Source of the DNA: an uncultured Bacillales bacterium
Lineage (GTDB): Bacteria; Bacillota_I; Bacilli_A; RF39; UBA660
Assembly: GCA_947564265.1 (NCBI GenBank)
Contig: CANOBK010000005.1
Coordinates: 66,548-130,547, forward strand
Length of the DNA stretch: 64,000 nucleotides
Reading direction: 5' to 3'
Shown here: positions 2,609 to 42,467 of the stretch, piece after piece
Layout of the letters: the number at the start of each line of letters is the position of its first letter
How positions within the stretch are numbered: position 1 is the first letter of the stretch
Notes under the pieces: model-generated
Database searches by the model: none
What the model was told of the DNA's origin: nothing
The model's input: the letters and a program-made list of their open reading frames with translations, nothing else
Program-made: the position numbers and the translations under genes

Positions 2609-3229
2609 TTAAATTTTTTTCAAATATTGCATATTCTTTTCGGGTAAAACTACTTCCTTTAGAAAGCAATTCCCACAAAGTGGTTCGTAAGTAATATTAG
2701 CATCACTTCCATCGATGATACATTCCTCTCCACTCATCGTATAAGCTCCATTTATTTTTCTTGCATTAAATAATGCTTTTTCTCCACATTTACAAAGTGG
2801 AATAATCGGTAGCTCATTTAGTTCATCCGCAAGTTCAAAGAATCTTCGGCTCCCCTCGAATAATCTTCCTTTAAAATTCGCCCGAAGTCCAAAGCCAATG
2901 ACTTGAATATCCAGTCTTTTGGAAATAGTCCAAAGTTCTTCTACTTGCTCTTTCGTTAAAAACTGTGCTTCATCGATAATGATAGCATCCATTTCAAATA
3001 TTCGAGAAAGATTAGCATCTGATAGAAAGCTCTCGTTTTTATCAATCCATAAATCAATCTTTCTTTGTGCACCTGATCTAGAAACAATATGGTCATCCCC
3101 TTTTGTATCAATACCCGGTTTCACTACGAGTGTTCGTTGATTATTTTCTTCTAGATTATAGGCCATTGGGATTAAGATTCCACTTTTTCCTCCCTTCATA
3201 GCGCTATAAAAATAAATTAATTTTGCCAC
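2609..3229 (-). CDS. tdk: Thymidine kinase
   Basis: Walker A GGKSG, IDEAQF motif, C-terminal zinc ribbon CKCG...CGNC; length 206 aa. Confidence 0.9.
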   Translation of the reverse strand: MAKLIYFYSAMKGGKSGILIPMAYNLEENNQRTLVVKPGIDTKGDDHIVSRSGAQRKIDLWIDKNESFLSDANLSRIFEMDAIIIDEAQFLTKEQVEELWTISKRLDIQVIGFGLRANFKGRLFEGSRRFFELADELNELPIIPLCKCGEKALFNARKINGAYTMSGEECIIDGSDANITYEPLCGNCFLKEVVLPEKNMQYLKKI

Positions 3230-4112: not shown

Positions 4113-5294
4113 ATGAAAAAAACAATTATGGATTTGGATCTTGCAGGAAAGCATGTAATTATTCGTTGTGATTTTAATGTTCCACTAAAAGATGGAAAAA
4201 TTATAGATGATACTAGAATTGTAGAAAGTCTCGATACGATTCGTTATGCGATTGGACAAAGAGCAAAAATTATTTTAATGTCTCATTTAGGTAGGATTAA
4301 AGAGGAAAGCGATTTAGAAAAAAATAGTCTAACACCAGTAGCCATGTGTTTAGGAGAGTTGTTGAGACTTCCAATTAAATTTATTAATCGAACAAGAAGT
4401 GAAAAACTAAAAGAAATTGTTGCCAATATGAAAGAAGGGGAAATCGTTCTCATTGAAAATACAAGATTTGAAGATTTGGATGGTAAAAAAGAAAGTTCCA
4501 ATGATGAAGAATTGGCTTCTTATTGGGCAAGCCTAGGAGATATTTTTATCAATGATGCTTTTGGAACGATTCATAGAGCACATGCTTCTAACGTTGGAAT
4601 CGGGAGTAAATTACCGAATGCAATTGGGTTCTTAGTAGAAAAAGAACTTTCTGCCTTAAGCAGATTAGATAATCCAGAAAGGCCTTATGTTGTCATTTTG
4701 GGAGGATCCAAAGTATCTGATAAAATCGGAGTCATTCAAAATTTAGTAGAAAAAGCCGATAAGATTATCATAGGTGGGGGAATGGCATTTACTTTCTTAA
4801 AAGCGGCCGGATATAATATTGGTAACTCTATTTTAGATAATGAAAACATTAATTTTTGTAAAGAAATATTAGAAAAATATCAGAGTAAAATTATTCTTCC
4901 AGTCGATGTAAATGCAGCTATCGATACAAAAGAAAGTACACCGAGTCGGATTGTAAAAGTAGGAGATTTACAATCTAACGAAATGGGATTAGACATTGGG
5001 ACCGAGACCATTAATCTATTTGCGAAGCATCTAATGAATGCCAAAACGGTAGTATGGAATGGACCTCTTGGTATGTATGAAATTCCGAAATATAGTATTG
5101 GAACAGAACAGATACTAAGATGTGTAACAGAATACAAAATTGAAACCATTCTTGGTGGTGGAGACATTGTCGCTGCCTCTAAAAAATTAGGTTACAAGGA
5201 TAAAGTAAGTCATGCATCTACAGGTGGGGGAGCAACACTTGAATATTTAGAAGGAAAAGAATTGCCAGGATTAAAAGTAATCAACGAAAAATAA
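4113..5294 (+). CDS. pgk: Phosphoglycerate kinase
   Basis: 393 aa, conserved PGK N-terminus (RCDFNVP) and C-terminal GGGA region; RBS GGGAGAG upstream. Confidence 0.95.
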   Translation: MKKTIMDLDLAGKHVIIRCDFNVPLKDGKIIDDTRIVESLDTIRYAIGQRAKIILMSHLGRIKEESDLEKNSLTPVAMCLGELLRLPIKFINRTRSEKLKEIVANMKEGEIVLIENTRFEDLDGKKESSNDEELASYWASLGDIFINDAFGTIHRAHASNVGIGSKLPNAIGFLVEKELSALSRLDNPERPYVVILGGSKVSDKIGVIQNLVEKADKIIIGGGMAFTFLKAAGYNIGNSILDNENINFCKEILEKYQSKIILPVDVNAAIDTKESTPSRIVKVGDLQSNEMGLDIGTETINLFAKHLMNAKTVVWNGPLGMYEIPKYSIGTEQILRCVTEYKIETILGGGDIVAASKKLGYKDKVSHASTGGGATLEYLEGKELPGLKVINEK

Positions 5295-34433: not shown

Positions 34434-35082
34434 GAGTAATTCAATTGTTTATGACATAAATATCATTTGTAAGGTAATCTGCGCTTTATTCATGTTATTA
34501 TCTATTATTTTGTTAAAGTTACCTTCCGTTTTAGTATTTCTTGGAATCTTCTTTTTAGGAATTGGCCTAGAATTTAGAAAGATTTCTATTTTAAGTATAA
34601 TTGGAATTCTGTTCTCTATTTTGGCAACCTTCTATCACTCCATCTTTTGGCTTCCTAAAATGATTCTATTTATTACATATTTATGCCTATTGAAGAAGAT
34701 TACGAAAGCTCCAGAACTAAGATACGTATTAGAAGTAACTCTTTATAAATTCCAAAGTAAGAAGGTAACATTCCGTATTTTATACATGATTTATTTTTTC
34801 AAGCAGTTAAGAAAAAATATGAGAATTTTAGATAGATTACGAGATGAGTATGGAATGGCTAGAGACTTCTTCTACTTAAGGTTTACGTTTAAAAAGGCAT
34901 GGAAAAAAACAAAGTACGAGATGAAAGACTTAATTACGATGAATGATTTAAGATTCTATAATTATTCGAAAGATAGAACTTATACAGAAAAGCCAAAATG
35001 GGAAAAATGGGATACAAAATATCTACTTGTGCACATGCTTATCTTAATTGTATTCTATGTTTTTGGGAGAAATATATGGTAA
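34414..35082 (+). CDS. ecfT: ECF transporter T-component-like membrane protein (divergent, short)
   Basis: Polytopic membrane protein at the expected ecfT position; only 222 aa and lacks obvious Ala-Arg-Gly motifs. Confidence 0.35.
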   Translation: MCINMFKSNSIVYDINIICKVICALFMLLSIILLKLPSVLVFLGIFFLGIGLEFRKISILSIIGILFSILATFYHSIFWLPKMILFITYLCLLKKITKAPELRYVLEVTLYKFQSKKVTFRILYMIYFFKQLRKNMRILDRLRDEYGMARDFFYLRFTFKKAWKKTKYEMKDLITMNDLRFYNYSKDRTYTEKPKWEKWDTKYLLVHMLILIVFYVFGRNIW

Positions 35083-35813
35083 GGTATAAGATAACATTTT
35101 CCTATGATGGGAGTAATTTTCATGGATATCAGATTCAACCAAAACTAAGAACGATTCAAGGAGAACTAGAAAGAGCGGTTAGTTATCTCAATCAACAAAC
35201 TGAAACTTCTGTTCAATCATCTGGGAGAACAGATGGGGGTGTCCATGCCTTAGCACAAGTAGCCCATTTTGATCTTAATATTGAAATCCCAGAATACAAA
35301 ATCAAACAAGGATTAAATACTCTTTTACCGAATGATATTCATATTATCTCAGTAAAGAAAGTAAGTGAGAAGTTCCATGCCAGGTTTTCATCAAAAAAGA
35401 AGGAATACATCTATAAAATAAATTTAGGAGAATATAACCCTACCTTGAGAAATTATGAATATCAGTATGGAAAAGAATTAGATATTTCAAAAATGGTAGA
35501 AGCAATTCATTCTTTTGAGGGAACTCATGATTTTACTTCGTTTGTCTCGAGTGAAGATATGAGAGAAGATAAAGTAAGAACTATCTATAAAACTTCTATC
35601 AAAAGAAATAAAGATATTTTAACTATTTCATTTCAAGCAGATGGATTTATGAAATATCAAGTAAGAAATATGGTAGGAATATTAATAGAAATTGGAAATG
35701 GTAAAAAAGAGGTTCAAGATGTAGAAAGAATATTAAATCTAAAAAATCGAAAAACTTCAATAAAAATAGCGCCCGCAGAAGGTCTTTATTTAAAAAAGGT
35801 GTGGTATAAATGA
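35076..35813 (+). CDS. truA: tRNA pseudouridine(38-40) synthase
   Basis: Start at MVRYKITFSYDGSNFHGYQ; conserved TruA motifs (GRTDGGVHA). Confidence 0.93.
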   Translation: MVRYKITFSYDGSNFHGYQIQPKLRTIQGELERAVSYLNQQTETSVQSSGRTDGGVHALAQVAHFDLNIEIPEYKIKQGLNTLLPNDIHIISVKKVSEKFHARFSSKKKEYIYKINLGEYNPTLRNYEYQYGKELDISKMVEAIHSFEGTHDFTSFVSSEDMREDKVRTIYKTSIKRNKDILTISFQADGFMKYQVRNMVGILIEIGNGKKEVQDVERILNLKNRKTSIKIAPAEGLYLKKVWYK

Positions 35814-36598
35814 GTGAAGTTAGAAAAAAATTAGAAACTTTCGGGAATACAGTGATTTATATCCGTTATGAAGAATTTAAGAATGTTCCAATAGATATTT
35901 ATATAGATAACTATACACAAATATTTAATTTTGGAATGAAAATCATATCTTATATGAGGGAACAAGAACATGAGAATTGGGATGTATGGTATATTGATGA
36001 ATGGTTCATTCTAAGAAAATTATTAGAAGAACTCTTGAAAACAGGAGAAGCTACTGTAAAACTTTTTCAGGAAAGATTGTTTTTGGGAAGAAATATTGAT
36101 AAACAGAAAATTAAGGAACTTACTAGTATAACAACTCAATTAGAGGGAGTAATTCAAAAAATTCCTTATGTAAAAAAAGCAAAGGAAAATATAGAAACAA
36201 TTGATGATTGGGTCAAATCGTTAAGAATTTATCAATTGGCTTCTCCCCTCTCCTTAGAAACTGAATGTTATCAAACAAATGATGCTCTATATCAAGATAT
36301 TAGAAAAATAGTTTTAACAAAGACTTCCCCGACTTATAAAAAAATATATGCAATTCGAGTATCTAAATTACTATCTAGTTATGAAAGTCAAAGTAAATTG
36401 CCAGGTGGAATCAATTTCCTAACGGAAGAAGCAGATTGGAAAGGATTAATAGAATTAATAAAACAACCAGAGTTTAATTTCCGAATTCCAGGGGATTATA
36501 AGAAAATAATCCATGATTTAGAAATCAAGGAGAAATTTGAATTTGAAGAATGGAAAAATGATATTCAATTATTGGTGAAAGAAGGAAAGTCTAGATAA
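35810..36598 (+). CDS. Hypothetical protein, paralogue 1 of a tandem triplicated family
   Basis: Shares DDWVKSLRIYQL...ECYQT.DALYQDI.KIVL.KTSP.YKK.Y...VS.LL and ...NFR motifs with the next two genes. Confidence 0.5.
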   Translation: MSEVRKKLETFGNTVIYIRYEEFKNVPIDIYIDNYTQIFNFGMKIISYMREQEHENWDVWYIDEWFILRKLLEELLKTGEATVKLFQERLFLGRNIDKQKIKELTSITTQLEGVIQKIPYVKKAKENIETIDDWVKSLRIYQLASPLSLETECYQTNDALYQDIRKIVLTKTSPTYKKIYAIRVSKLLSSYESQSKLPGGINFLTEEADWKGLIELIKQPEFNFRIPGDYKKIIHDLEIKEKFEFEEWKNDIQLLVKEGKSR

Positions 36599-36600
36599 AA

Positions 36601-37377
36601 ATGGAACTTATCGAAAAAGTAAATAAGGAAGGAACGATATCAATGGATGAAATATATGAAAAATTAGGAAATTTAAAAAAAGAAATTTATATTGGTCGTA
36701 TTCATTGCGATAAAATAACTTATATAATCAAATTACTAGAATATGGAATAGAAACAATAGGTGATATAAAAAATCATCCTGAAGTAGGCAAAGAAGAATT
36801 AGAAATAGCAGTTGGTTTTGGAGAATCTATTCTCTATTTTGCAAAATCAGGATCATGGGGAAAAAATAACGAGCGATTAAGGAAGAAACTCAATCAATTA
36901 GTCGTTCAGTTAGAACAAGAAGTAGATTCAATCAAGGAAATGGATCTTATGAATACGATATATACAGATTTAAATGAATGGGTAGAGTCATTAAATATTT
37001 GTAGATTCAGGGATGGCCATATAAAAGAAGAACAGTATCAAACTAGTTATGATTTGTATGTAGATTTAAGGAAAGGCTTTATAGATCAAAGTATGTCACG
37101 GAAACAAGAGCTATATATTGGTAAAATCGTAGATCAATTGGATCAAGGAAGTACAAAGTTATCGGAAGAGTGTAAAATTGAAGTGTCAGATTATGAATTA
37201 TCGAAACTAATGGGAATGATAAGAGAGAATCCAAGATTTAATTATAGACTGCAACGGGATAATAGCTATAAGCTAGAAACGATCAATCAATCTATTGAAA
37301 GAGAAATGAAGTTAAGTAAAAGACAAGTGCTAGAAAAACGATTACAAAAACTGATTATTGATCATTCAGTTCAATAG
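36601..37377 (+). CDS. Hypothetical protein, paralogue 2 of a tandem triplicated family
   Basis: NEWVESLNI..., EQYQTSYDLY, SDYELSKL, NPRFNYR motifs. Confidence 0.5.
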   Translation: MELIEKVNKEGTISMDEIYEKLGNLKKEIYIGRIHCDKITYIIKLLEYGIETIGDIKNHPEVGKEELEIAVGFGESILYFAKSGSWGKNNERLRKKLNQLVVQLEQEVDSIKEMDLMNTIYTDLNEWVESLNICRFRDGHIKEEQYQTSYDLYVDLRKGFIDQSMSRKQELYIGKIVDQLDQGSTKLSEECKIEVSDYELSKLMGMIRENPRFNYRLQRDNSYKLETINQSIEREMKLSKRQVLEKRLQKLIIDHSVQ

Positions 37378-37399
37378 TATATGGAAAGGACAAATCAAA

Positions 37400-38128
37400 A
37401 TGAGTATAAAAGAAAAACAAGATAAATTAATCGATGAAATTGTGCATGTAAGAGGTGGCTATGCCTATGAGTGTAAATGGGATGATCATATCAATGCTTT
37501 AGAACGAGGAATTGAATTGGCTTCCGATACATTACATTTAATCTCAGAAGAAGATACATCTTCCAATCAAAAAATAGATGATCATGAAATTTTTGCGACA
37601 AAAATATTAATAGAAGAATTATTAAAAGTTTCAGGAATAGACCAACCACAGAAAAGTAGAAATTATAGGGTTAAAAAGGTATACGAATTATCATGTATTT
37701 TAAGAGAAAAATTAAATCAAATTCCCGATATCGTTCAAGAAGAGGAAAAAGTTACATCCATAAACAGTTGGATAAAATCCTTAAGAATATTTAAAATGAA
37801 TTCTAAGTTTATTTCTACAGAATATTATCAAAGTAGTGGGGATTTATGTACAGATATTAGCAAAATCGTATTGAAAAAGACTTCTCCATTATATCAAAAA
37901 CTTTATGTAGGAAAAGTAAGTAGTCTGTTGGATGAAGAGAATCGAAAGACAGAAGATATTTTAAAATCAGATTATGAGTTATCAGAATTAGTCCGTTTAA
38001 CCAAAGATAACCCTGATTTTAACTACAGAAAACTTTCCAGTTTAGAATGGACTTATCAAAAAGCACTCATAAATGATAGAATCGAAAGAGGATTTTACCG
38101 AAGTGGCTTAAAAATGTTGATAAAATAG
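37400..38128 (+). CDS. Hypothetical protein, paralogue 3 of a tandem triplicated family
   Basis: NSWIKSLRIF, EYYQSSGDL, KKTSPLYQKLYVGKVSSLL, SDYELSEL, NPDFNYR motifs; start uncertain (ORF opens at 37358, MSIKEKQ start at 37400 preferred). Confidence 0.5.
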   Translation: MSIKEKQDKLIDEIVHVRGGYAYECKWDDHINALERGIELASDTLHLISEEDTSSNQKIDDHEIFATKILIEELLKVSGIDQPQKSRNYRVKKVYELSCILREKLNQIPDIVQEEEKVTSINSWIKSLRIFKMNSKFISTEYYQSSGDLCTDISKIVLKKTSPLYQKLYVGKVSSLLDEENRKTEDILKSDYELSELVRLTKDNPDFNYRKLSSLEWTYQKALINDRIERGFYRSGLKMLIK

Positions 38129-38714: not shown

Positions 38715-39134
38715 ATGGCAGAGAAAAAAGCTTATACTGGTACTGGTAGAAGAAAAACTAGTGTAGCCAGAGTAAAATTAATTCCTGGAAAAGGAAAAAT
38801 TACAATCAATGGTAGAGATGTTCGTGATTACTTACCTTATGAAACTCTAATCATGGACTTAGAGCAACCATTAGTATTAACAAATACAAAAGATATGTTT
38901 GATGTAGTAGTAAATGTTCGTGGTGGTGGATTCTCAGGACAAACAGGAGCTATCCGTCACGGTATTACAAGGGCATTATTACAATATGATAGTACGACTT
39001 CAAAAGACTCTGAAAACAGCTATCGTAAGGTTTTAAAACCAGCTGGATTTATTACTCGCGATGCTCGTAAGAAAGAACGTAAGAAACCAGGTTTAAAGAA
39101 AGCACGTCGTGCACCACAGTTCTCAAAGAGATAG
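38715..39134 (+). CDS. rpsI: 30S ribosomal protein S9
   Basis: Conserved S9 with basic C-terminus ...RRAPQFSKR. Confidence 0.96.
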
Positions 39135-39163
39135 AATTACGTTTATGTTTATACCTCGAAAAC

Positions 39164-39200
39164 TCGATGTTTTCGGGGTTTTTCTTTTTTTATACAGATT
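39164..39200 (+). terminator. Rho-independent terminator of rplM-rpsI (CCTCGAAAAC-tcgat-GTTTTCGGGG plus T-run)
   Basis: Perfect stem and T-run seen in sequence. Confidence 0.8.
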
Positions 39201-39313
39201 AGAACTGTTTGAATTGGTTCGTAGGTAACTTAAGGAACATCATTTTAAAATTATAAGATTGTCATAGACAATGGTTGAAAAGTTTAGTATCATATCTATA
39301 CGGAAGTGATGCT

Positions 39314-40021
39314 ATGAAGATATATGTATATTTAGATGAAAGTGGTTCTATCCATAAAAATAGTAACACAAAGTATTTTGCCGTTGGTGGATACTTTGTA
39401 TTTGCTTCAGATAGGAATAAAGTTACATCTCGATACAAAAAAATAAATAAAAAGATGAAAGACAGTAAAAATATTTCTTTATCTAAAGAAATAAAATCTT
39501 ATGATATGACAGATTTAGAGAAAATAGAAATTTTTAATAATATCCAAGATATTGATACATTTTATGGATGTGCTAAAATCTTTGAAAAAGCAGCTATGAG
39601 AAAAGAGATTATAGAATCAAATATATTTTTTAATTACGCAGTTAAGTTGGTATTTAAAGATTGCATTATACCTCTCTTAAATCTAAATCAATTGAATGAA
39701 AATCTAGAATTTATCGTAAGCGTCGATAACAGAAATATTAGAATTGGCGACTTAAATAATTTAGAAACATATTTAAAAACTGAATTTTGTTTAGAAAATT
39801 TTGGATTTAAAATAACTTATTATGATTCTTCAACTAATTATGGAGTACAATTAGCAGACCTAGTTGTTAATACATTTTATAATTCATATAAAGATAGAAA
39901 CATTGTTAAGAAAGTATTACCTACACTGAAAGGTAAAAATTTTAGAATAAGTTTGTTTCCTGGTCATAAAATTAAGGGTAGAATTCAAAAAATTGAATAT
40001 AATAGTAATGAGAATGTTTGA
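39314..40021 (+). CDS. DUF3800 family protein
   Basis: Family-typical N-terminus MKIYVYLDESG and C-terminal QLADLV motif; ORF opens at 39275 but the conserved start is at 39314. Confidence 0.6.
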   Translation: MKIYVYLDESGSIHKNSNTKYFAVGGYFVFASDRNKVTSRYKKINKKMKDSKNISLSKEIKSYDMTDLEKIEIFNNIQDIDTFYGCAKIFEKAAMRKEIIESNIFFNYAVKLVFKDCIIPLLNLNQLNENLEFIVSVDNRNIRIGDLNNLETYLKTEFCLENFGFKITYYDSSTNYGVQLADLVVNTFYNSYKDRNIVKKVLPTLKGKNFRISLFPGHKIKGRIQKIEYNSNENV

Positions 40022-40058
40022 CATGAGAGTAATCTTATGCTAAAATATTCTTACAAGA

Positions 40059-40122
40059 CCTGAGGTAGGTAGCTAAATGCTAAGCGTATGTTAAGTACGC
40101 TGCCCCTCAGGCATTTTTATTT
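40059..40122 (+). terminator. Long imperfect hairpin (CCTGAGG...AGCGTA-N7-TACGCT...CCTCAGG) followed by an A/T-rich tract; probable terminator or small structured RNA after the DUF3800 gene
   Basis: Nested inverted repeats seen directly. Confidence 0.4.
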
Positions 40123-40236
40123 TAAAAAAAAGATAATCAAAAAAAACTAATTTGTAGGCAACAAAATTTCATTTTTCTTTTTAAATACAATCAACATAAA
40201 TTTACAAAAGACAGCATTATGTTTATGTTTCTGACT

Positions 40237-40266
40237 CGAAAACTCGGTGTTTTCGTTTTTTTTTTC
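40237..40266 (+). terminator. Second copy of the rpsI-type terminator (CGAAAAC-tcggt-GTTTTCG plus long T-run)
   Basis: About 40 nt nearly identical to 39150-39195, including the preceding TATGTTTAT. Confidence 0.7.
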
Positions 40267-40375
40267 TAGAACGGAAAAGGTTAGATACTTAAAAATATAC
40301 TTCCATTATCAATCTTGAATATTTATAGTATAATAAACTTATAAACAAATAGAAATCTATTAAGGAGTAATTACT

Positions 40376-40909
40376 ATGGCGAAAATAAGAAGGTTAAATA
40401 TCATTCTTCCGAGTATTTATTATATTTTTGGAATATTTGGATTTTACTTCCTTTTTATCATGGGCATCACTTCTGGATTTCTAGACTTAAAAAAATTATT
40501 TTTGATATTATTTGTAGTTTTACCAATCATCGTTTTGTTACTGCCAATAGTGATAAGAACAATCATGAAAATAGAGTTTTATAAATGTATCCTATTTAGT
40601 TTAATTGGAGTTGTGATTTATTTTATCATTTTCTCTATTGTTTTACTCTCTATTGGTACTTTTAGTGAGAGTAATTGGAAAAATGATAAATATATGAATC
40701 TAAGATATTTAATGATCGATGATTTAGAGTCTAAATATGACCTTATAGGGATGAATAAAGATGAAATTATGAAACTATTAGGAGAAACAAGTGGAGAAGG
40801 GGAACTATGTTATTCTACAAGTAGCTTCATGATAACTACTTACTTTTATTGTCTAAAATATGATGAAAATGATTTAATTACAGAAATCTATGAAAAGGAA
40901 GTAGATTAA
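40376..40909 (+). CDS. Hypothetical integral membrane protein
   Basis: Three to four predicted TM helices in the N-terminal 100 aa; no family recognised. Confidence 0.45.
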   Translation: MAKIRRLNIILPSIYYIFGIFGFYFLFIMGITSGFLDLKKLFLILFVVLPIIVLLLPIVIRTIMKIEFYKCILFSLIGVVIYFIIFSIVLLSIGTFSESNWKNDKYMNLRYLMIDDLESKYDLIGMNKDEIMKLLGETSGEGELCYSTSSFMITTYFYCLKYDENDLITEIYEKEVD

Positions 40910-40981
40910 TTAAGAAGAGTTCTATTTCTAGAGAGGATGCTTTTGGTATTTCTTGACTTTTTTTAAATATCATATAAAATA

Positions 40982-41428
40982 TTGCGAAAAGGAGGGGACT
41001 CTATGGTAGAAGTAAAAAGGCAACGCCCTGCAGTTTTAAAAGAGTATCCTAATAAAATGACATTAGTGGAACAAAATGAGGAATATAATCTAATAAATGG
41101 AGTTGTACTAAGTGATGAGAGATATGGATTTACGTTCATTGACGAACAGGGGAGCGAAATTGAGTATGGGACGCAGTGTCCTATTTTTGGAATAGATATC
41201 GATAAAGAAAATAAACAAGTCCGAGTATGGGAAGAAGGGAAAAGTATTCCTTGGAGATTAGCGATGAAAACAGGAGAAGTAGTAGATTTCGCGAAGTTTC
41301 TTGATATATCGAAACGTGATTTACAATACTTAAAAGATCATTTTGGACTTCCAAAAGAATCGATAGAAGAAGTAAACTCTTATTTTAATAAAGGAAAAAC
41401 GTTAAATAAAAATCATAAAAATGGATAA
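40982..41428 (+). CDS. Hypothetical protein
   Basis: 148 aa soluble protein; no family recognised. Confidence 0.4.
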   Translation: MRKGGDSMVEVKRQRPAVLKEYPNKMTLVEQNEEYNLINGVVLSDERYGFTFIDEQGSEIEYGTQCPIFGIDIDKENKQVRVWEEGKSIPWRLAMKTGEVVDFAKFLDISKRDLQYLKDHFGLPKESIEEVNSYFNKGKTLNKNHKNG

Positions 41429-41561
41429 TGAAATACGAAAGAACGATAGTAGAAGTCTAAAACATTGGAAAAATTCAATGTTTTTTCTTGGTGTTTTTTT
41501 CCTTTTTTGATATTCTATAAAGAAATAGGTAAAACTAGAATTTCTAGTTAGGAGGAATCAA

Positions 41562-42467
41562 ATGATTTTAAGTATTAGTGAAAGAACTGACATTGTTGGT
41601 TTCTATATGCCTTGGTTTTTAAATCGTTTAAAAGAAGGGTATGTAGATGTTAGGAACCCATTTTATCCGAAACAGGTAAGTAGGATTCTTCTGGATCAAG
41701 AACATATTGATGCGATTGTTTTTTGTACGAAAAATCCAATTCCGCTACTGGAAAATCTAGATAAGATTCCCTTTCCCTTTATTGTACAGGTAACAATCAC
41801 TCCTTATATGAGAGAGATAGAGCCGAATGTTCCTTCGAAAAGAAAAATCATAGAGACTGTAAAGAAAATTTCTAAAATGGTTGGAAAAGATCGGGTTTAT
41901 GTAAGATATGATCCAATTCTTTTAAGTAAAAAATATACTATTTCTTATCATGAAAAAATGTTTGAAAGGTTGTGTCAGGAATTAGAGAATGATATCAGTC
42001 GAGTCATTATTAGTTTTTTAGATATTAAAAAGAATGTTTTGAAGAATCGGAAAATCTTAAATCTTACTCCATTCACCAAGGAAAATATCTATGAAATCTC
42101 AAAAAAAATCGGTTCCATTGCCTCTTCACACCATCTAGAAGTTAGTACTTGTGGAGAGAGTATCGATTTATCCGAGTTTGGAATTGTCGGAAAGGGCTGT
42201 ATGAGTGAAGAAGATATCCACAAACTTGTGAATAAACCGATAAAATTTAGGAAGAATAAAACTAGAATGAATTGTAATTGTGTGGATACGACAGATTTAG
42301 GTGTTTATAATTGTTGTAGCCACTTTTGTAAATACTGTTATGCAAATTATGAGGAATCCCAAGTAATGAAAAATAGGAGAAATCATAACCCTAAATCTTC
42401 TTTATTAATTGGAGAGTTAGAAGAGGGGGATATAATAAAAATAAAAGATACAAAGCAGGAAGTTTAA
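41562..42467 (+). CDS. DUF1848 family protein with C-terminal Cys cluster
   Basis: N-terminus ISERTDIVGFYMPWFLNRL...GYV.VRNPF.PKQVSRI matches my recollection of DUF1848; C-terminal CNCVD...CCSHFCKYCYAN cysteine cluster. Confidence 0.45.
   Translation: MILSISERTDIVGFYMPWFLNRLKEGYVDVRNPFYPKQVSRILLDQEHIDAIVFCTKNPIPLLENLDKIPFPFIVQVTITPYMREIEPNVPSKRKIIETVKKISKMVGKDRVYVRYDPILLSKKYTISYHEKMFERLCQELENDISRVIISFLDIKKNVLKNRKILNLTPFTKENIYEISKKIGSIASSHHLEVSTCGESIDLSEFGIVGKGCMSEEDIHKLVNKPIKFRKNKTRMNCNCVDTTDLGVYNCCSHFCKYCYANYEESQVMKNRRNHNPKSSLLIGELEEGDIIKIKDTKQEV

What the first reader, a model, noticed from the sequence alone, without database searches (positions are those of the whole stretch)
39141..40275. 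DUF3800 gene islet inserted after rpsI and bracketed by duplicated copies of the rpsI terminator
The conserved truA-rplM-rpsI unit ends with a perfect terminator at 39164-39200. Right after it lies a single DUF3800-family gene (39314-40021) with its own long hairpin at 40059-40122. A second, slightly diverged copy of the rpsI terminator then follows (TATGTTTAT...CGAAAAC..GTTTTCG plus T-run, 40215-40266). A duplicated flank of this kind is the footprint expected from site-specific insertion or recombination of a one-gene cassette. DUF3800 is poorly characterised and turns up repeatedly in variable or defence-associated neighbourhoods.
Basis: seen in the sequence. Interest (0 to 1): 0.6.

Follow-up and report, generated by a model that had tools for sequence, protein, structure and literature searches.

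The report
Mobile DUF3800-plus-sRNA islet at rpsI
A 1.1-kb mobile islet carrying an RNase-H-like DUF3800 gene and its own small structured RNA has been inserted into the end of the ribosomal gene rpsI, leaving a duplicated copy of the rpsI end and terminator; both kinds of element are already described, but this is a clean and recurring example, and what the gene and RNA do is still unknown.

Summary
A 65-69-nt direct repeat (39124-39192 and 40205-40268) holds the last ~11 nt of rpsI plus its terminator. It brackets a DUF3800 gene and occurs nowhere else in the 64 kb.

The "long hairpin" is a conserved ~70-nt sRNA with its own promoter. It is a truncated relative of Rfam DUF3800-I that scores below threshold.

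Comparative data support insertion:
- None of 80 related species has DUF3800 after rpsI. Their frame is rpsI then DUF1848, with varying cargo between.
- The DUF3800+sRNA module is 84-92% identical in genomes whose RpsI is only 60-69% identical, and it again sits after rpsI there.
- In L154 it is bracketed by the same kind of rpsI-end/terminator repeat. In L099 it is bracketed by a repeat of the secA 3' end. In L095 it lies by a tRNA cluster, between hairpin repeats.
- Unrelated one-gene cargos after rpsI are bracketed the same way in four species. The two read further upstream (plus L048 and L020) also have 11-nt tandem repeats resembling integrase arm sites.

Best reading: an integrase-less, CIME-like cassette at the known rpsI 3' att site. 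Its cargo is a nuclease-plus-RNA pair, possibly an addiction or defence module; that function is inferred, not shown. This is a new variant of known kinds, of moderate interest.

The parts
38715..39134 (+). rpsI (ribosomal protein S9), the target gene. Its last ~11 nt lie inside the left repeat.
   Evidence: Pfam Ribosomal_S9, 2.2e-47. 97% identical to the closest species, L004.
39124..39192 (+). Left direct repeat (attL-like): the rpsI 3' end plus the native rpsI terminator (stem 39153-39179, then T-run).
   Evidence: Its hairpin and GGGGTTTTCTTTT tail resemble the rpsI terminator of L004, so this copy is taken to be the resident one.
39222..39230 (+). Single degenerate copy (GTAGGTAAC) of the 11-nt GTAGGCTACA-type motif. 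This motif is tandemly repeated after rpsI terminators and at cassette ends in relatives; it is a putative arm-type recombinase site.
   Evidence: Read. Homologous positions in L088, L084, L050, L057, L132 and L048. Weak in the window itself.
39265..39293 (+). Promoter-like site for DUF3800 (TAGACA-17-TATCAT), followed by the RBS GGAAGTGA.
   Evidence: The TAGACA...TAGTATCAT stretch is shared with L084, L088 and L151.
39314..40021 (+). DUF3800 gene, 235 aa, predicted RNase HII-like fold with intact acidic residues.
   Evidence: PF12686, 58.8 bits. 235-aa homologues fix the ATG start. AF2 pLDDT 91.4. Foldseek top hits are RNase HII 1eke (E 1.3e-5) and RNase H2A 3puf. D8, E9, D138, D171 and Q179 are invariant; D182 is at least 90% conserved.
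40018..40046 (+). sRNA promoter: TTGACA-17-TG-extended TAAAAT. The -35 hexamer overlaps the DUF3800 stop codon.
   Evidence: 11 of 12 consensus matches with TG. TTGACA and the TGnTAnAAT box are conserved in all 29 distinct homologous loci.
40053..40123 (+). Structured sRNA of ~70 nt. The outer stem (40059-40065 with 40105-40111) and a second stem enclose two hairpins. The outer stem plus U-run acts as the terminator. It is a truncated DUF3800-I-type RNA.
   Evidence: Rfam RF02969, 31.8 bits, below the gathering score of 44.2 (E 0.036). Own model R1 scores 109.5 bits, with a single copy in the window. 98.9% of cells paired, 6 pairs with compensatory changes, 0 of 500 shuffles as good. 95-100% identical where the ORF is 79-91% (91% vs 76% in L102).
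40154..40166 (+). GTAGGCAACAAAA: one copy of the 11-nt motif in the right arm of the cassette.
   Evidence: The same flank in L151 carries two tandem copies and L084 carries four.
40205..40268 (+). Right direct repeat (attR-like): a degenerate rpsI 3' end (CAAAAGACAGCATTA) plus a second terminator (stem 40237-40255, then T-run). It was probably imported with the cassette.
   Evidence: The same architecture (pseudo-rpsI end plus terminator) closes cassettes in L154, L084, L088, L015, L020, L041 and L048.
40376..41428 (+). Two further genes of the variable rpsI-DUF1848 interval (177-aa membrane protein, 141/148-aa ORF). They are not part of the repeat-bounded islet.
   Evidence: No homologue in any of 80 related rpsI loci. 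No family hits above threshold.
41562..42467 (+). DUF1848 gene, the conserved downstream frame of the hotspot.
   Evidence: PF08902, 8.5e-90. It follows rpsI directly in L005 and lies nearby in L004, L006 and L012.

Best explanation
The interval is a ~1.1-kb integrase-less mini-island, a cis-mobilizable (CIME-like) cassette. It was integrated by site-specific recombination into the attachment site formed by the last ~11 nt of rpsI and its terminator.

The left repeat is the resident rpsI end and terminator. The right repeat is a copy carried in by the cassette; it holds a degenerate rpsI end. The rpsI-DUF1848 gap is a hotspot where such cassettes accumulate.

The cargo is a two-part module. 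One part is a DUF3800 protein with an RNase HII-like fold and an intact acidic active site. The other is a ~70-nt structured sRNA, a truncated DUF3800-I type, transcribed from its own strong promoter that overlaps the gene's stop codon.

The following is shown:
- the repeat;
- the horizontal mobility of the module;
- its recurrence at rpsI, secA and tRNA sites;
- the RNA structure and its extreme conservation;
- the protein fold.

The following is inferred:
- The recombinase is a tyrosine integrase acting in trans.
- The protein and RNA work as a ribonucleoprotein in which the RNA restrains or directs the nuclease. That would make it an addiction or defence-type module that persists after the rest of an integrative element decays.
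For: Insertion:
- 0 of 80 related species have DUF3800 within 5 kb of rpsI. L005 has rpsI followed by DUF1848 after 66 nt. L004 has other cargo there.

Mobility:
- DUF3800 is 92, 88, 85 and 84% identical in L151, L084, L154 and L088. RpsI there is only 60, 67, 69 and 65% identical.
- Homology between contexts is confined to about 39302-40126.

Same signature elsewhere:
- L154: rpsI-T1-DUF3800-sRNA-pseudo-rpsI-end-T2, with a ~45-nt near-perfect repeat.
- L099: a 41-nt repeat of the secA 3' end brackets the module, and 11-nt tandem TTGTCCACA repeats lie in both arms.
- L095: a ~75-nt hairpin repeat next to a tRNA cluster, with an integrase 1.3 kb away.
- Unrelated cargo behind rpsI is bracketed by rpsI-end/terminator repeats in L015, L020, L041 and L053. 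Five species (6 of 80 distinct loci, the window's own species being counted twice) show such a repeat, against 0 in 306 kb of upstream control.
- Right-end architecture is shared: L015, L041 and L048 have the 11-nt repeats, ATAAATA.AGG and GCTAATTTAGTAA; L088 and L020 have looser versions.
- A RelB/YafQ cassette is 92-94% identical between the rpsI sites of L004 and L088.

Integrases:
- Tyrosine integrases lie beside the module in L090-93 and in L115-129 (Pfam).

Literature:
- The 3' end of rpsI is a known target of IME/ICE tyrosine integrases, with long direct repeats, tandem accretion and decay to CIMEs (PMC5357655, PMC5704250).

sRNA and protein:
- sRNA evidence.
- Protein evidence.
- The sRNA persists beside nine loci (at least four distinct) with decayed DUF3800. 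Only one locus (L122) has an intact DUF3800 without the sRNA.
Against: - No integrase-like ORF was found in the window or in the 83 rpsI loci L001-L083, using a profile built from the integrases next to other DUF3800 modules. The recombinase is therefore hypothetical here.
- In the window the 11-nt arm-like motif is present only as single degenerate copies.
- The two repeat copies differ by ~19%, so the event is old or the copies come from different lineages. No strain of this species with an empty site was found: L001-L003 all carry the islet.
- The function is unsupported by any direct hit. PADLOC and NCBIfam find nothing for the protein, and the literature held gives no function for DUF3800 or its RNAs.
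Confidence: 0.7

Rival explanations
1. The cassettes move by RecA-type homologous (Campbell-like) recombination or by transformation, using the conserved rpsI 3' end and terminator as portable homology. No dedicated site-specific integrase is involved.
For: - No integrase was found in the window or in the 83 rpsI loci L001-L083.
- Cassettes carry an rpsI-end/terminator copy from earlier hosts. The L084 right end resembles the L050/L057 terminators, and L088 T2 resembles the L004 terminator.
Against: - The shared segment is only ~45-70 nt and often ~80% identical, which makes a poor RecA substrate.
- Conserved 11-nt tandem repeats lie in both arms, and they differ between rpsI sites (GTAGGCTACA) and secA sites (TTGTCCACA), as arm-type integrase sites would.
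- Integrases sit next to the module at other sites.
Confidence: 0.15
2. DUF3800 plus its sRNA is itself the mobile agent: an RNA-assisted recombinase or nuclease (bridge-RNA or omega-RNA style) that inserts next to terminators and creates the long duplications.
For: - Homology between contexts stops tightly at the module's ends.
- The module is the sole cargo of repeat-flanked islets at three different targets.
- The protein has an RNase-H-superfamily fold.
- A 16-nt perfect repeat flanks the module in L125-129.
Against: - Cargo unrelated to DUF3800 shows the same rpsI junctions.
- The sRNA is 95-100% identical in all but the most divergent locus compared (91% in L102) across different target sites. 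Its only variable positions are compensatory stem changes, so there is no guide-like segment.
- The best structural matches are RNase HII, not transposases or integrases.
- The protein is only 235 aa.
Confidence: 0.06
3. There was no insertion. The two terminators are similar by chance or by convergence, or by an old local duplication, and the arrangement was inherited vertically.
For: - All three contigs of this species carry the same arrangement.
- The copies are 19% diverged.
Against: - z = 17 for the repeat, and 0 of 100 shuffles give two pattern matches.
- The repeat includes rpsI codons.
- 80 relatives lack the gene at this site.
- DUF3800 is far more conserved than RpsI between carriers.
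Confidence: 0.03
4. The hairpin is only the 3' UTR or terminator of the DUF3800 mRNA and has no separate function.
For: - It lies 31 nt after the stop codon and ends in a U-run.
- The Rfam score is below threshold.
Against: - A conserved TTGACA / TG-extended -10 promoter lies upstream of it in all 29 distinct loci.
- It is 91-100% identical where the ORF is 76-91%.
- Six stem pairs covary.
- It survives next to decayed DUF3800 genes.
- Its core matches the DUF3800-I consensus.
Confidence: 0.05

Closest known systems
DUF3800-I RNA motif (Rfam RF02969) together with DUF3800 genes (Weinberg et al. 2017, PMC5737381)
   Same: - The structured RNA lies next to a DUF3800 gene.
- The core matches: an outer stem encloses two hairpins with the conserved UAAGCG...UAA...CGC sequence.
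- It ends in a terminator.
- The function is unknown in both cases.
   Different: - It scores 31.8 bits against a gathering score of 44.2, and none of the related copies in the 13 loci tested (15 scanned, two without the module) reaches the threshold.
- The 5' hairpin of the model is absent.
- There is no separate 3' terminator hairpin; the outer stem plus U-run terminates instead.
- Here a dedicated promoter, a fixed position and the same strand directly after the gene are all defined.
Integrative mobilizable elements and their decayed CIME derivatives at the 3' end of rpsI in streptococci (PMC5357655, PMC5704250)
   Same: - The target is the 3' end of rpsI.
- Long direct repeats include the gene end.
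- Elements accrete in tandem, and some have lost their integrase.
   Different: - The host is an uncultured gut Bacilli lineage.
- The islets are extremely small, about 1 kb with one cargo module.
- No cognate integrase has been identified.
- The arm repeats and repeat sequences are specific to this clade.
Retron type VII (RT + ncRNA + DUF3800) and TPR-DUF3800 accessories of Cas12a2/Cas12a3 (PMC7736814, PMC10910872, PMC13594972)
   Same: - The protein is a DUF3800 RNase-H2-like protein with an N-terminal DE motif.
- It is paired with a non-coding nucleic-acid partner, in mobile or defence contexts.
   Different: - There is no reverse transcriptase, no CRISPR array and no TPR domain here.
- The C-terminal QxxD motif is present here (QLAD 179-182), whereas the retron-associated branch lacks the Q.
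- There is no PADLOC hit.
Type III toxin-antitoxin systems (ToxIN-like)
   Same: Resemblance in logic only: a nuclease-fold protein is encoded with a small structured RNA in a compact mobile module, and the RNA outlives the protein gene in decayed copies.
   Different: - The RNA is a single copy, lies downstream and has its own promoter. It is not a tandem repeat array upstream of the toxin.
- The protein fold is RNase HII-like, not ToxN/AbiQ.
- Toxicity has not been tested.

Membership tests
Pfam DUF3800 (PF12686) | Profile score above the gathering threshold | tested here: met
   58.8 bits against 21, covering positions 1-148 of the 149-position profile.
Pfam DUF3800 (PF12686) | N-terminal DE motif and C-terminal QxxD motif (as described in PMC7736814) | tested here: met
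   D8-E9 are invariant. Q179-L-A-D182 is present, with Q179 invariant and D182 at least 90% conserved across 57 homologues.
Pfam DUF3800 (PF12686) | RNase H (type 2)-like fold | tested here: met
   AF2 pLDDT 91.4. The top Foldseek PDB hits are RNase HII 1eke (E 1.3e-5, TM 0.51) and human RNase H2A 3puf.
Rfam DUF3800-I (RF02969) | Covariance-model score at or above the gathering score | tested here: not met
   31.8 bits against 44.2 (E 0.036). There are no gathering-level hits in the window or in 15 related loci.
Rfam DUF3800-I (RF02969) | Core multi-stem junction with the conserved UAAGCG / UAA / CGC nucleotides | tested here: met
   Alignment to the model core at high posterior probability. 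The structure is supported by 6 covarying pairs and 98.9% pairing.
Rfam DUF3800-I (RF02969) | 5' hairpin and separate 3' terminator hairpin of the model | tested here: not met
   The 5' hairpin positions are deleted or non-canonical, and the 3' hairpin region aligns to an A/T run.
Rfam DUF3800-I (RF02969) | Genomic association with a DUF3800 gene | tested here: met
   The RNA lies 25-30 nt (about 80 nt in one clade) after the gene in all 36 intact loci scored with the model.
CIME / integrase-dependent integrative element at rpsI | Direct repeats that include the 3' end of the target gene and flank the element | tested here: met
   39124-39192 / 40205-40268. The same is seen in L154, L015, L020, L041 and L053.
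CIME / integrase-dependent integrative element at rpsI | No integrase or transfer genes inside the element | tested here: met
   Only DUF3800 and the sRNA lie between the repeats. There is no integrase-like ORF in the window.
CIME / integrase-dependent integrative element at rpsI | Arm-type recombinase binding repeats in the arms | tested here: inconclusive
   The window has single degenerate copies (39222, 40154). Clear tandem 11-nt repeats are present in L084, L151, L132, L050, L057 and L048.
CIME / integrase-dependent integrative element at rpsI | Excision or integration by a cognate integrase supplied in trans | not testable with these tools
   This needs read-level junction searches or experiments.
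Integron gene cassette | attC site with RYYYAAC ... GTTRRRY core sites, and an adjacent intI gene | tested here: not met
   The hairpins CGAAAAC...GTTTTCG do not fit the core-site consensus. No integrase lies near rplM-rpsI.
Retron type VII | Reverse transcriptase adjacent to or fused with DUF3800 | tested here: not met
   The neighbours are rpsI and a membrane protein. There is no PADLOC hit for the DUF3800 protein.
Type III toxin-antitoxin | Tandem-repeat RNA antitoxin upstream of a ToxN/AbiQ-type toxin | tested here: not met
   There is one RNA copy, and it lies downstream. The protein fold is RNase HII-like.

The most novel reading that the evidence does not exclude
The DUF3800-sRNA pair may take part in the recombination itself. 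It could be an RNA-containing nuclease or accessory factor that lets integrase-less mini-islets insert at, or be maintained at, terminator-containing att sites. This would explain why it is repeatedly the only cargo left between att repeats at rpsI, secA and tRNA sites, and why it sits directly beside integrase genes elsewhere. A less radical version, which I rate more likely (about 0.35), is a new protein-RNA addiction or abortive-infection module.
Probability: 0.07. Interest if true: 0.85.

Novelty: new variant of a known kind. Interest (0 to 1): 0.5.

Why it matters
DUF3800 proteins and their eleven associated RNA motifs have had no function since 2017. They keep appearing in retrons and in Cas12a2/a3 and type VI CRISPR loci.

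This locus offers a minimal, well-bounded unit for experiments: about 825 bp holding one RNase-HII-like gene and one ~70-nt sRNA with a defined promoter and terminator. The RNA is more conserved than the protein and survives after the protein gene decays.

The locus also shows that the module travels as cargo of tiny att-flanked islets at housekeeping-gene ends in uncultured gut Bacilli. Finally, the rpsI terminator region of these genomes turns out to be a cassette-accumulating hotspot. That is useful for delimiting mobile DNA in MAGs.

Tried and rejected
- Integron reading: rejected. There are no attC core sites and no intI.
- Genome-wide repeat (REP-like terminator): rejected for this window, which holds only two copies in 64 kb.
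- k-mer enrichment downstream of rpsI in 81 loci: it gave only terminator-type words and did not by itself recover the 11-nt motif. A regex search did recover it.
- Scan of viral contigs for the tandem GTAGGCTACA motif: it found only two GC-rich, unrelated contigs, which is a chance or irrelevant result.
- Scan of viral contigs for the protein: one partial hit.
- Plasmid and phage collections: only ~30%-identical homologues, in a Fusobacterium replicon and a Streptococcus satellite phage.
- PDB sequence search with the family profile: no hit.
- The supplement of the 2017 RNA-motif paper is not held, and a 2026 preprint mentioning DUF3800 could not be read.
- Extension of the window repeat beyond the T-runs: the alignment is only weak and AT-rich, so it is not claimed.
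- No flanking repeat above noise was found for L101, L088 (right side) or most secA loci. Not every copy of the module is cleanly bracketed.
Full report
**1. What is in the sequence**

rplM (38238/38271-38699) and rpsI (38715-39134) are clear (Pfam). rpsI is followed by a terminator: a stem at 39153-39179 and then a T-run.

A 235-aa ORF at 39314-40021 hits Pfam DUF3800 at 58.8 bits against a cutoff of 21. Nearly all close homologues are also 235 aa, which fixes the ATG start. After the ORF come a long hairpin (40059-40111) and a second terminator (stem 40237-40255 and T-run).

The two terminator regions form a direct repeat.
- Ungapped, it is 58 nt at 81% identity.
- With gaps, it spans 39124-39192 and 40205-40268 (score 69, z = 17).
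- It begins about 11 nt inside rpsI. The second copy therefore carries a degenerate rpsI end (CAAAAGACAGCATTA against CAAAGAGATAGAATTA).
- The repeat pattern and the hairpin pattern each occur only at these two places in 64 kb. No shuffle (0 of 100) gave two matches.

One detail of the finding is wrong. truA (34998-35813) is separated from rplM by three paralogous ORFs of unknown function (35810-38128).

**2. The hairpin is an sRNA gene**

The only Rfam match in the region is DUF3800-I (RF02969) at 40035-40145. It scores 31.8 bits against a gathering score of 44.2 (E 0.036).

The model's core aligns well: an outer stem encloses two hairpins with the conserved UAAGCG...UAA...CGC sequence. The model's 5' hairpin and its separate 3' terminator hairpin are missing.

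A near-consensus promoter, TTGACA-17-TG-TAAAAT (40018-46), overlaps the DUF3800 stop codon. Both boxes are conserved in all 29 distinct homologous loci.

On 20 distinct sequences:
- the proposed 19-pair structure is 98.9% paired;
- 6 pairs carry compensatory changes;
- 0 of 500 shuffles reach this, and slid controls collapse to 28-40% paired.

The outer stem followed by a U-run serves as the terminator (fold at -24.1 kcal/mol, z = -3.1).

A covariance model built from these sequences finds one copy in the window (109.5 bits). It also finds a copy after every DUF3800 homologue with enough downstream sequence, except L122. None of these copies reaches the Rfam threshold.

The RNA is 95-100% identical where the ORF DNA is 79-91% identical; in the most divergent locus compared (L102) it is 91% against 76%. 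It remains intact next to nine loci (at least four distinct) whose DUF3800 gene is broken.

**3. The protein**

AlphaFold2 on a 57-sequence alignment gives pLDDT 91.4 and pTM 0.90. The best Foldseek matches in the PDB are:
- archaeal RNase HII (1eke, E 1.3e-5);
- human RNase H2A (3puf);
- A. fulgidus RNase HII.

This agrees with what others reported for DUF3800 (PMC7736814, PMC10910872). D8, E9, D138, D171 and Q179 are invariant, and D182 is at least 90% conserved. An active nuclease is therefore plausible. PADLOC, NCBIfam and a PDB sequence search give nothing.

**4. Is it an insertion?**

I fetched 80 species-level relatives through RpsI (68-97% identity, uncultured gut Bacilli). None has a DUF3800 gene within 5 kb of rpsI.
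- In L005, rpsI is followed after 66 nt by DUF1848. L006 has a 316-nt gap.
- L004, the closest relative (RpsI 97%), has a RelB/YafQ pair, an HNH-like ORF and a small membrane ORF between rpsI and DUF1848.
- The window's membrane-protein gene and the next ORF have no homologue in any relative.

So rpsI to DUF1848 is the conserved frame, and the interval 39135-41561 is variable.

**5. The module is horizontally mobile and keeps landing at the same kind of site**

Hundreds of 235-aa homologues are 77-92% identical. Sampling their contigs shows the module directly after rpsI in at least six other backgrounds with different downstream genes:

| Locus | DUF3800 identity | RpsI identity |
|---|---|---|
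| L151 | 92% | 60% |
| L084 | 88% | 67% |
| L154 | 85% | 69% |
| L088 | 84% | 65% |
| L132 | 83% | 81% |
| L101 | 74% | 69% |

A non-essential gene that is better conserved than a ribosomal protein, and absent from the nearer relatives, indicates transfer. Other copies lie after secA (L090-93, L099, L100, L112, L133 and others) or beside a tRNA cluster (L095). Between contexts, DNA homology is confined to about 39302-40126: the RBS, ORF, sRNA promoter and sRNA.

**6. The repeat signature recurs**

- L154 has rpsI-T1-DUF3800-sRNA, then ATCAATTTAGTAAGAGATAG (a pseudo rpsI end) and a near-perfect second terminator.
- In L099, a 41-nt copy of the secA 3' end (38 of 41 identical) follows the module. 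Tandem 11-nt TTGTCCACA repeats lie in both arms.
- In L095, ~75-nt hairpin repeats bracket the module (z = 6.7), and an integrase lies 1.3 kb away.
- In L125-129, a perfect 16-nt repeat brackets the module next to a divergent tyrosine integrase.

The signature is independent of DUF3800. Six of 80 distinct rpsI loci (five species, because the window's own species is represented by both L001 and the window) have a second copy of the rpsI end and terminator downstream. The 306 kb of upstream control sequence has none. The repeats enclose unrelated single ORFs in L015, L020, L041 and L053.

Cassette right ends share an architecture:
- 11-nt tandem repeats (GTAGGCTACA type);
- a small hairpin;
- ATAAATA.AGG;
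- GCTAATTTAGTAA[AG][CA]GTTAA, a pseudo rpsI end;
- a terminator.

L015, L041 and the two L048 junctions show all of these elements. L088 and L020 show looser versions, and L053 was not read that far upstream.

The same 11-nt repeats follow the true rpsI terminator in L050, L057 and L132. The window has single copies at the two homologous positions, 39222 and 40154. In L151 the right flank matches the window up to this motif.

L088 shows three terminator copies. They separate an empty unit, a RelB/YafQ cassette and the DUF3800 module. That TA cassette is 92-94% identical to the one at the rpsI site of L004.

The window's left terminator resembles that of L004. The right ends of cassettes can resemble rpsI terminators of other lineages: the L084 right end is like L050/L057. 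I therefore take the left copy to be resident and the right copy to be imported.

**7. Interpretation**

The following features are the anatomy of tyrosine-integrase att sites and of tandem accretion with decay to integrase-less CIMEs:
- direct repeats that include the 3' end of a conserved gene;
- tandem repeats in both arms whose sequence depends on the target;
- stacking of cassettes;
- integrases next to the module at other sites.

This has been described for the 3' end of rpsI in streptococci (PMC5357655, PMC5704250).

The weak point is the recombinase. No integrase-like ORF is present in the window or in the 83 rpsI loci L001-L083. It must act in trans, or else the islets are relics. Homologous recombination through the portable rpsI end is the main rival.

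A self-mobile, RNA-guided DUF3800 is unlikely for three reasons:
- unrelated cargo shows the same junctions;
- the sRNA has no target-dependent variable segment;
- the fold is that of RNase HII.

**8. Function of the cargo**

Nothing in the held literature assigns a function to DUF3800 or its RNAs. The relevant observations are these:
- a nuclease-fold protein with intact catalytic residues;
- a dedicated, strongly promoted and extremely conserved RNA;
- persistence of the RNA after the gene decays, but almost never the reverse;
- repeated survival of the pair as the last cargo of decayed elements;
- neighbours such as RelB/YafQ, Abi_2, Fic and MmeI-type enzymes.

From these I infer a ribonucleoprotein addiction or defence-type module in which the RNA restrains or directs the nuclease. 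I put about 0.35 on this functional part. It is untested.

**9. Verdict**

Both components belong to known kinds: DUF3800 with a DUF3800-I-type RNA, and att-flanked integrative islets at rpsI. The new points are:
- a truncated RNA variant that is invisible to Rfam thresholds;
- its precise promoter and terminator anatomy;
- its higher conservation than the protein;
- the module's recurrent status as the sole cargo of mini-islets at three target genes;
- a cassette-accumulating rpsI hotspot in uncultured gut Bacilli.

Interest is moderate.

Noticed in passing
window 35810-38128: Three tandem paralogous ORFs (262, 258 and 256 aa) lie between truA and rplM. They have no Pfam hit above threshold and no NCBIfam or PADLOC hits. 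Diverged copies (27-48% identity) sit at the same place in L004 and L006.
   Followed up: partly
window 41562-42467: The DUF1848 gene, the conserved neighbour of rpsI in relatives, matches the PADLOC model RTasDUF1848 (a DRT accessory) at 2e-34. No reverse transcriptase is adjacent.
   Followed up: no
window 40376-41428: The 177-aa multi-pass membrane protein and the 141/148-aa ORF have no homologue in any of 80 related rpsI loci and no family assignment. They are probably further, older cargo of the same hotspot, with no recognisable repeat after them.
   Followed up: partly
L048 1857-4400: A cassette array without DUF3800 lies behind rpsI. Junction repeats of ~165 nt (2860-3040 and 4225-4390) each contain tandem GTAGGCTACA repeats, a pseudo rpsI end and a terminator, and they separate small ORFs.
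   Followed up: partly
L099 2598-4135 and L109 997-2556: Copies of the secA 3' end (41 nt and 123 nt) bracket small inserts behind secA. Tandem 11-nt TTGTCCACA repeats lie in the arms in L099. This is a second att system with the same logic.
   Followed up: partly
L125-L129, e.g. L125 3929-3944 and 4817-4832: A perfect 16-nt direct repeat, ATGACACGTCCTTTCA, flanks a more distant DUF3800+sRNA module (55% identity) that sits divergently next to a tyrosine integrase.
   Followed up: partly
L004 5645-6230 and L088 4227-4812: A RelB/YafQ toxin-antitoxin cassette is 92-94% identical between the rpsI hotspots of two lineages that are not each other's close relatives by RpsI (L004 97% and L088 65% identical to the window).
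   Followed up: yes
L124 3-315 and 1520-2301: Two copies of the module lie about 2 kb apart: a DUF3800 C-terminal fragment with its sRNA at the contig edge, then a complete module.
   Followed up: no
L122 1378-2100: This is the only locus with an apparently intact DUF3800 ORF and room downstream but no detectable sRNA. A gene on the opposite strand starts 78 nt after it.
   Followed up: no
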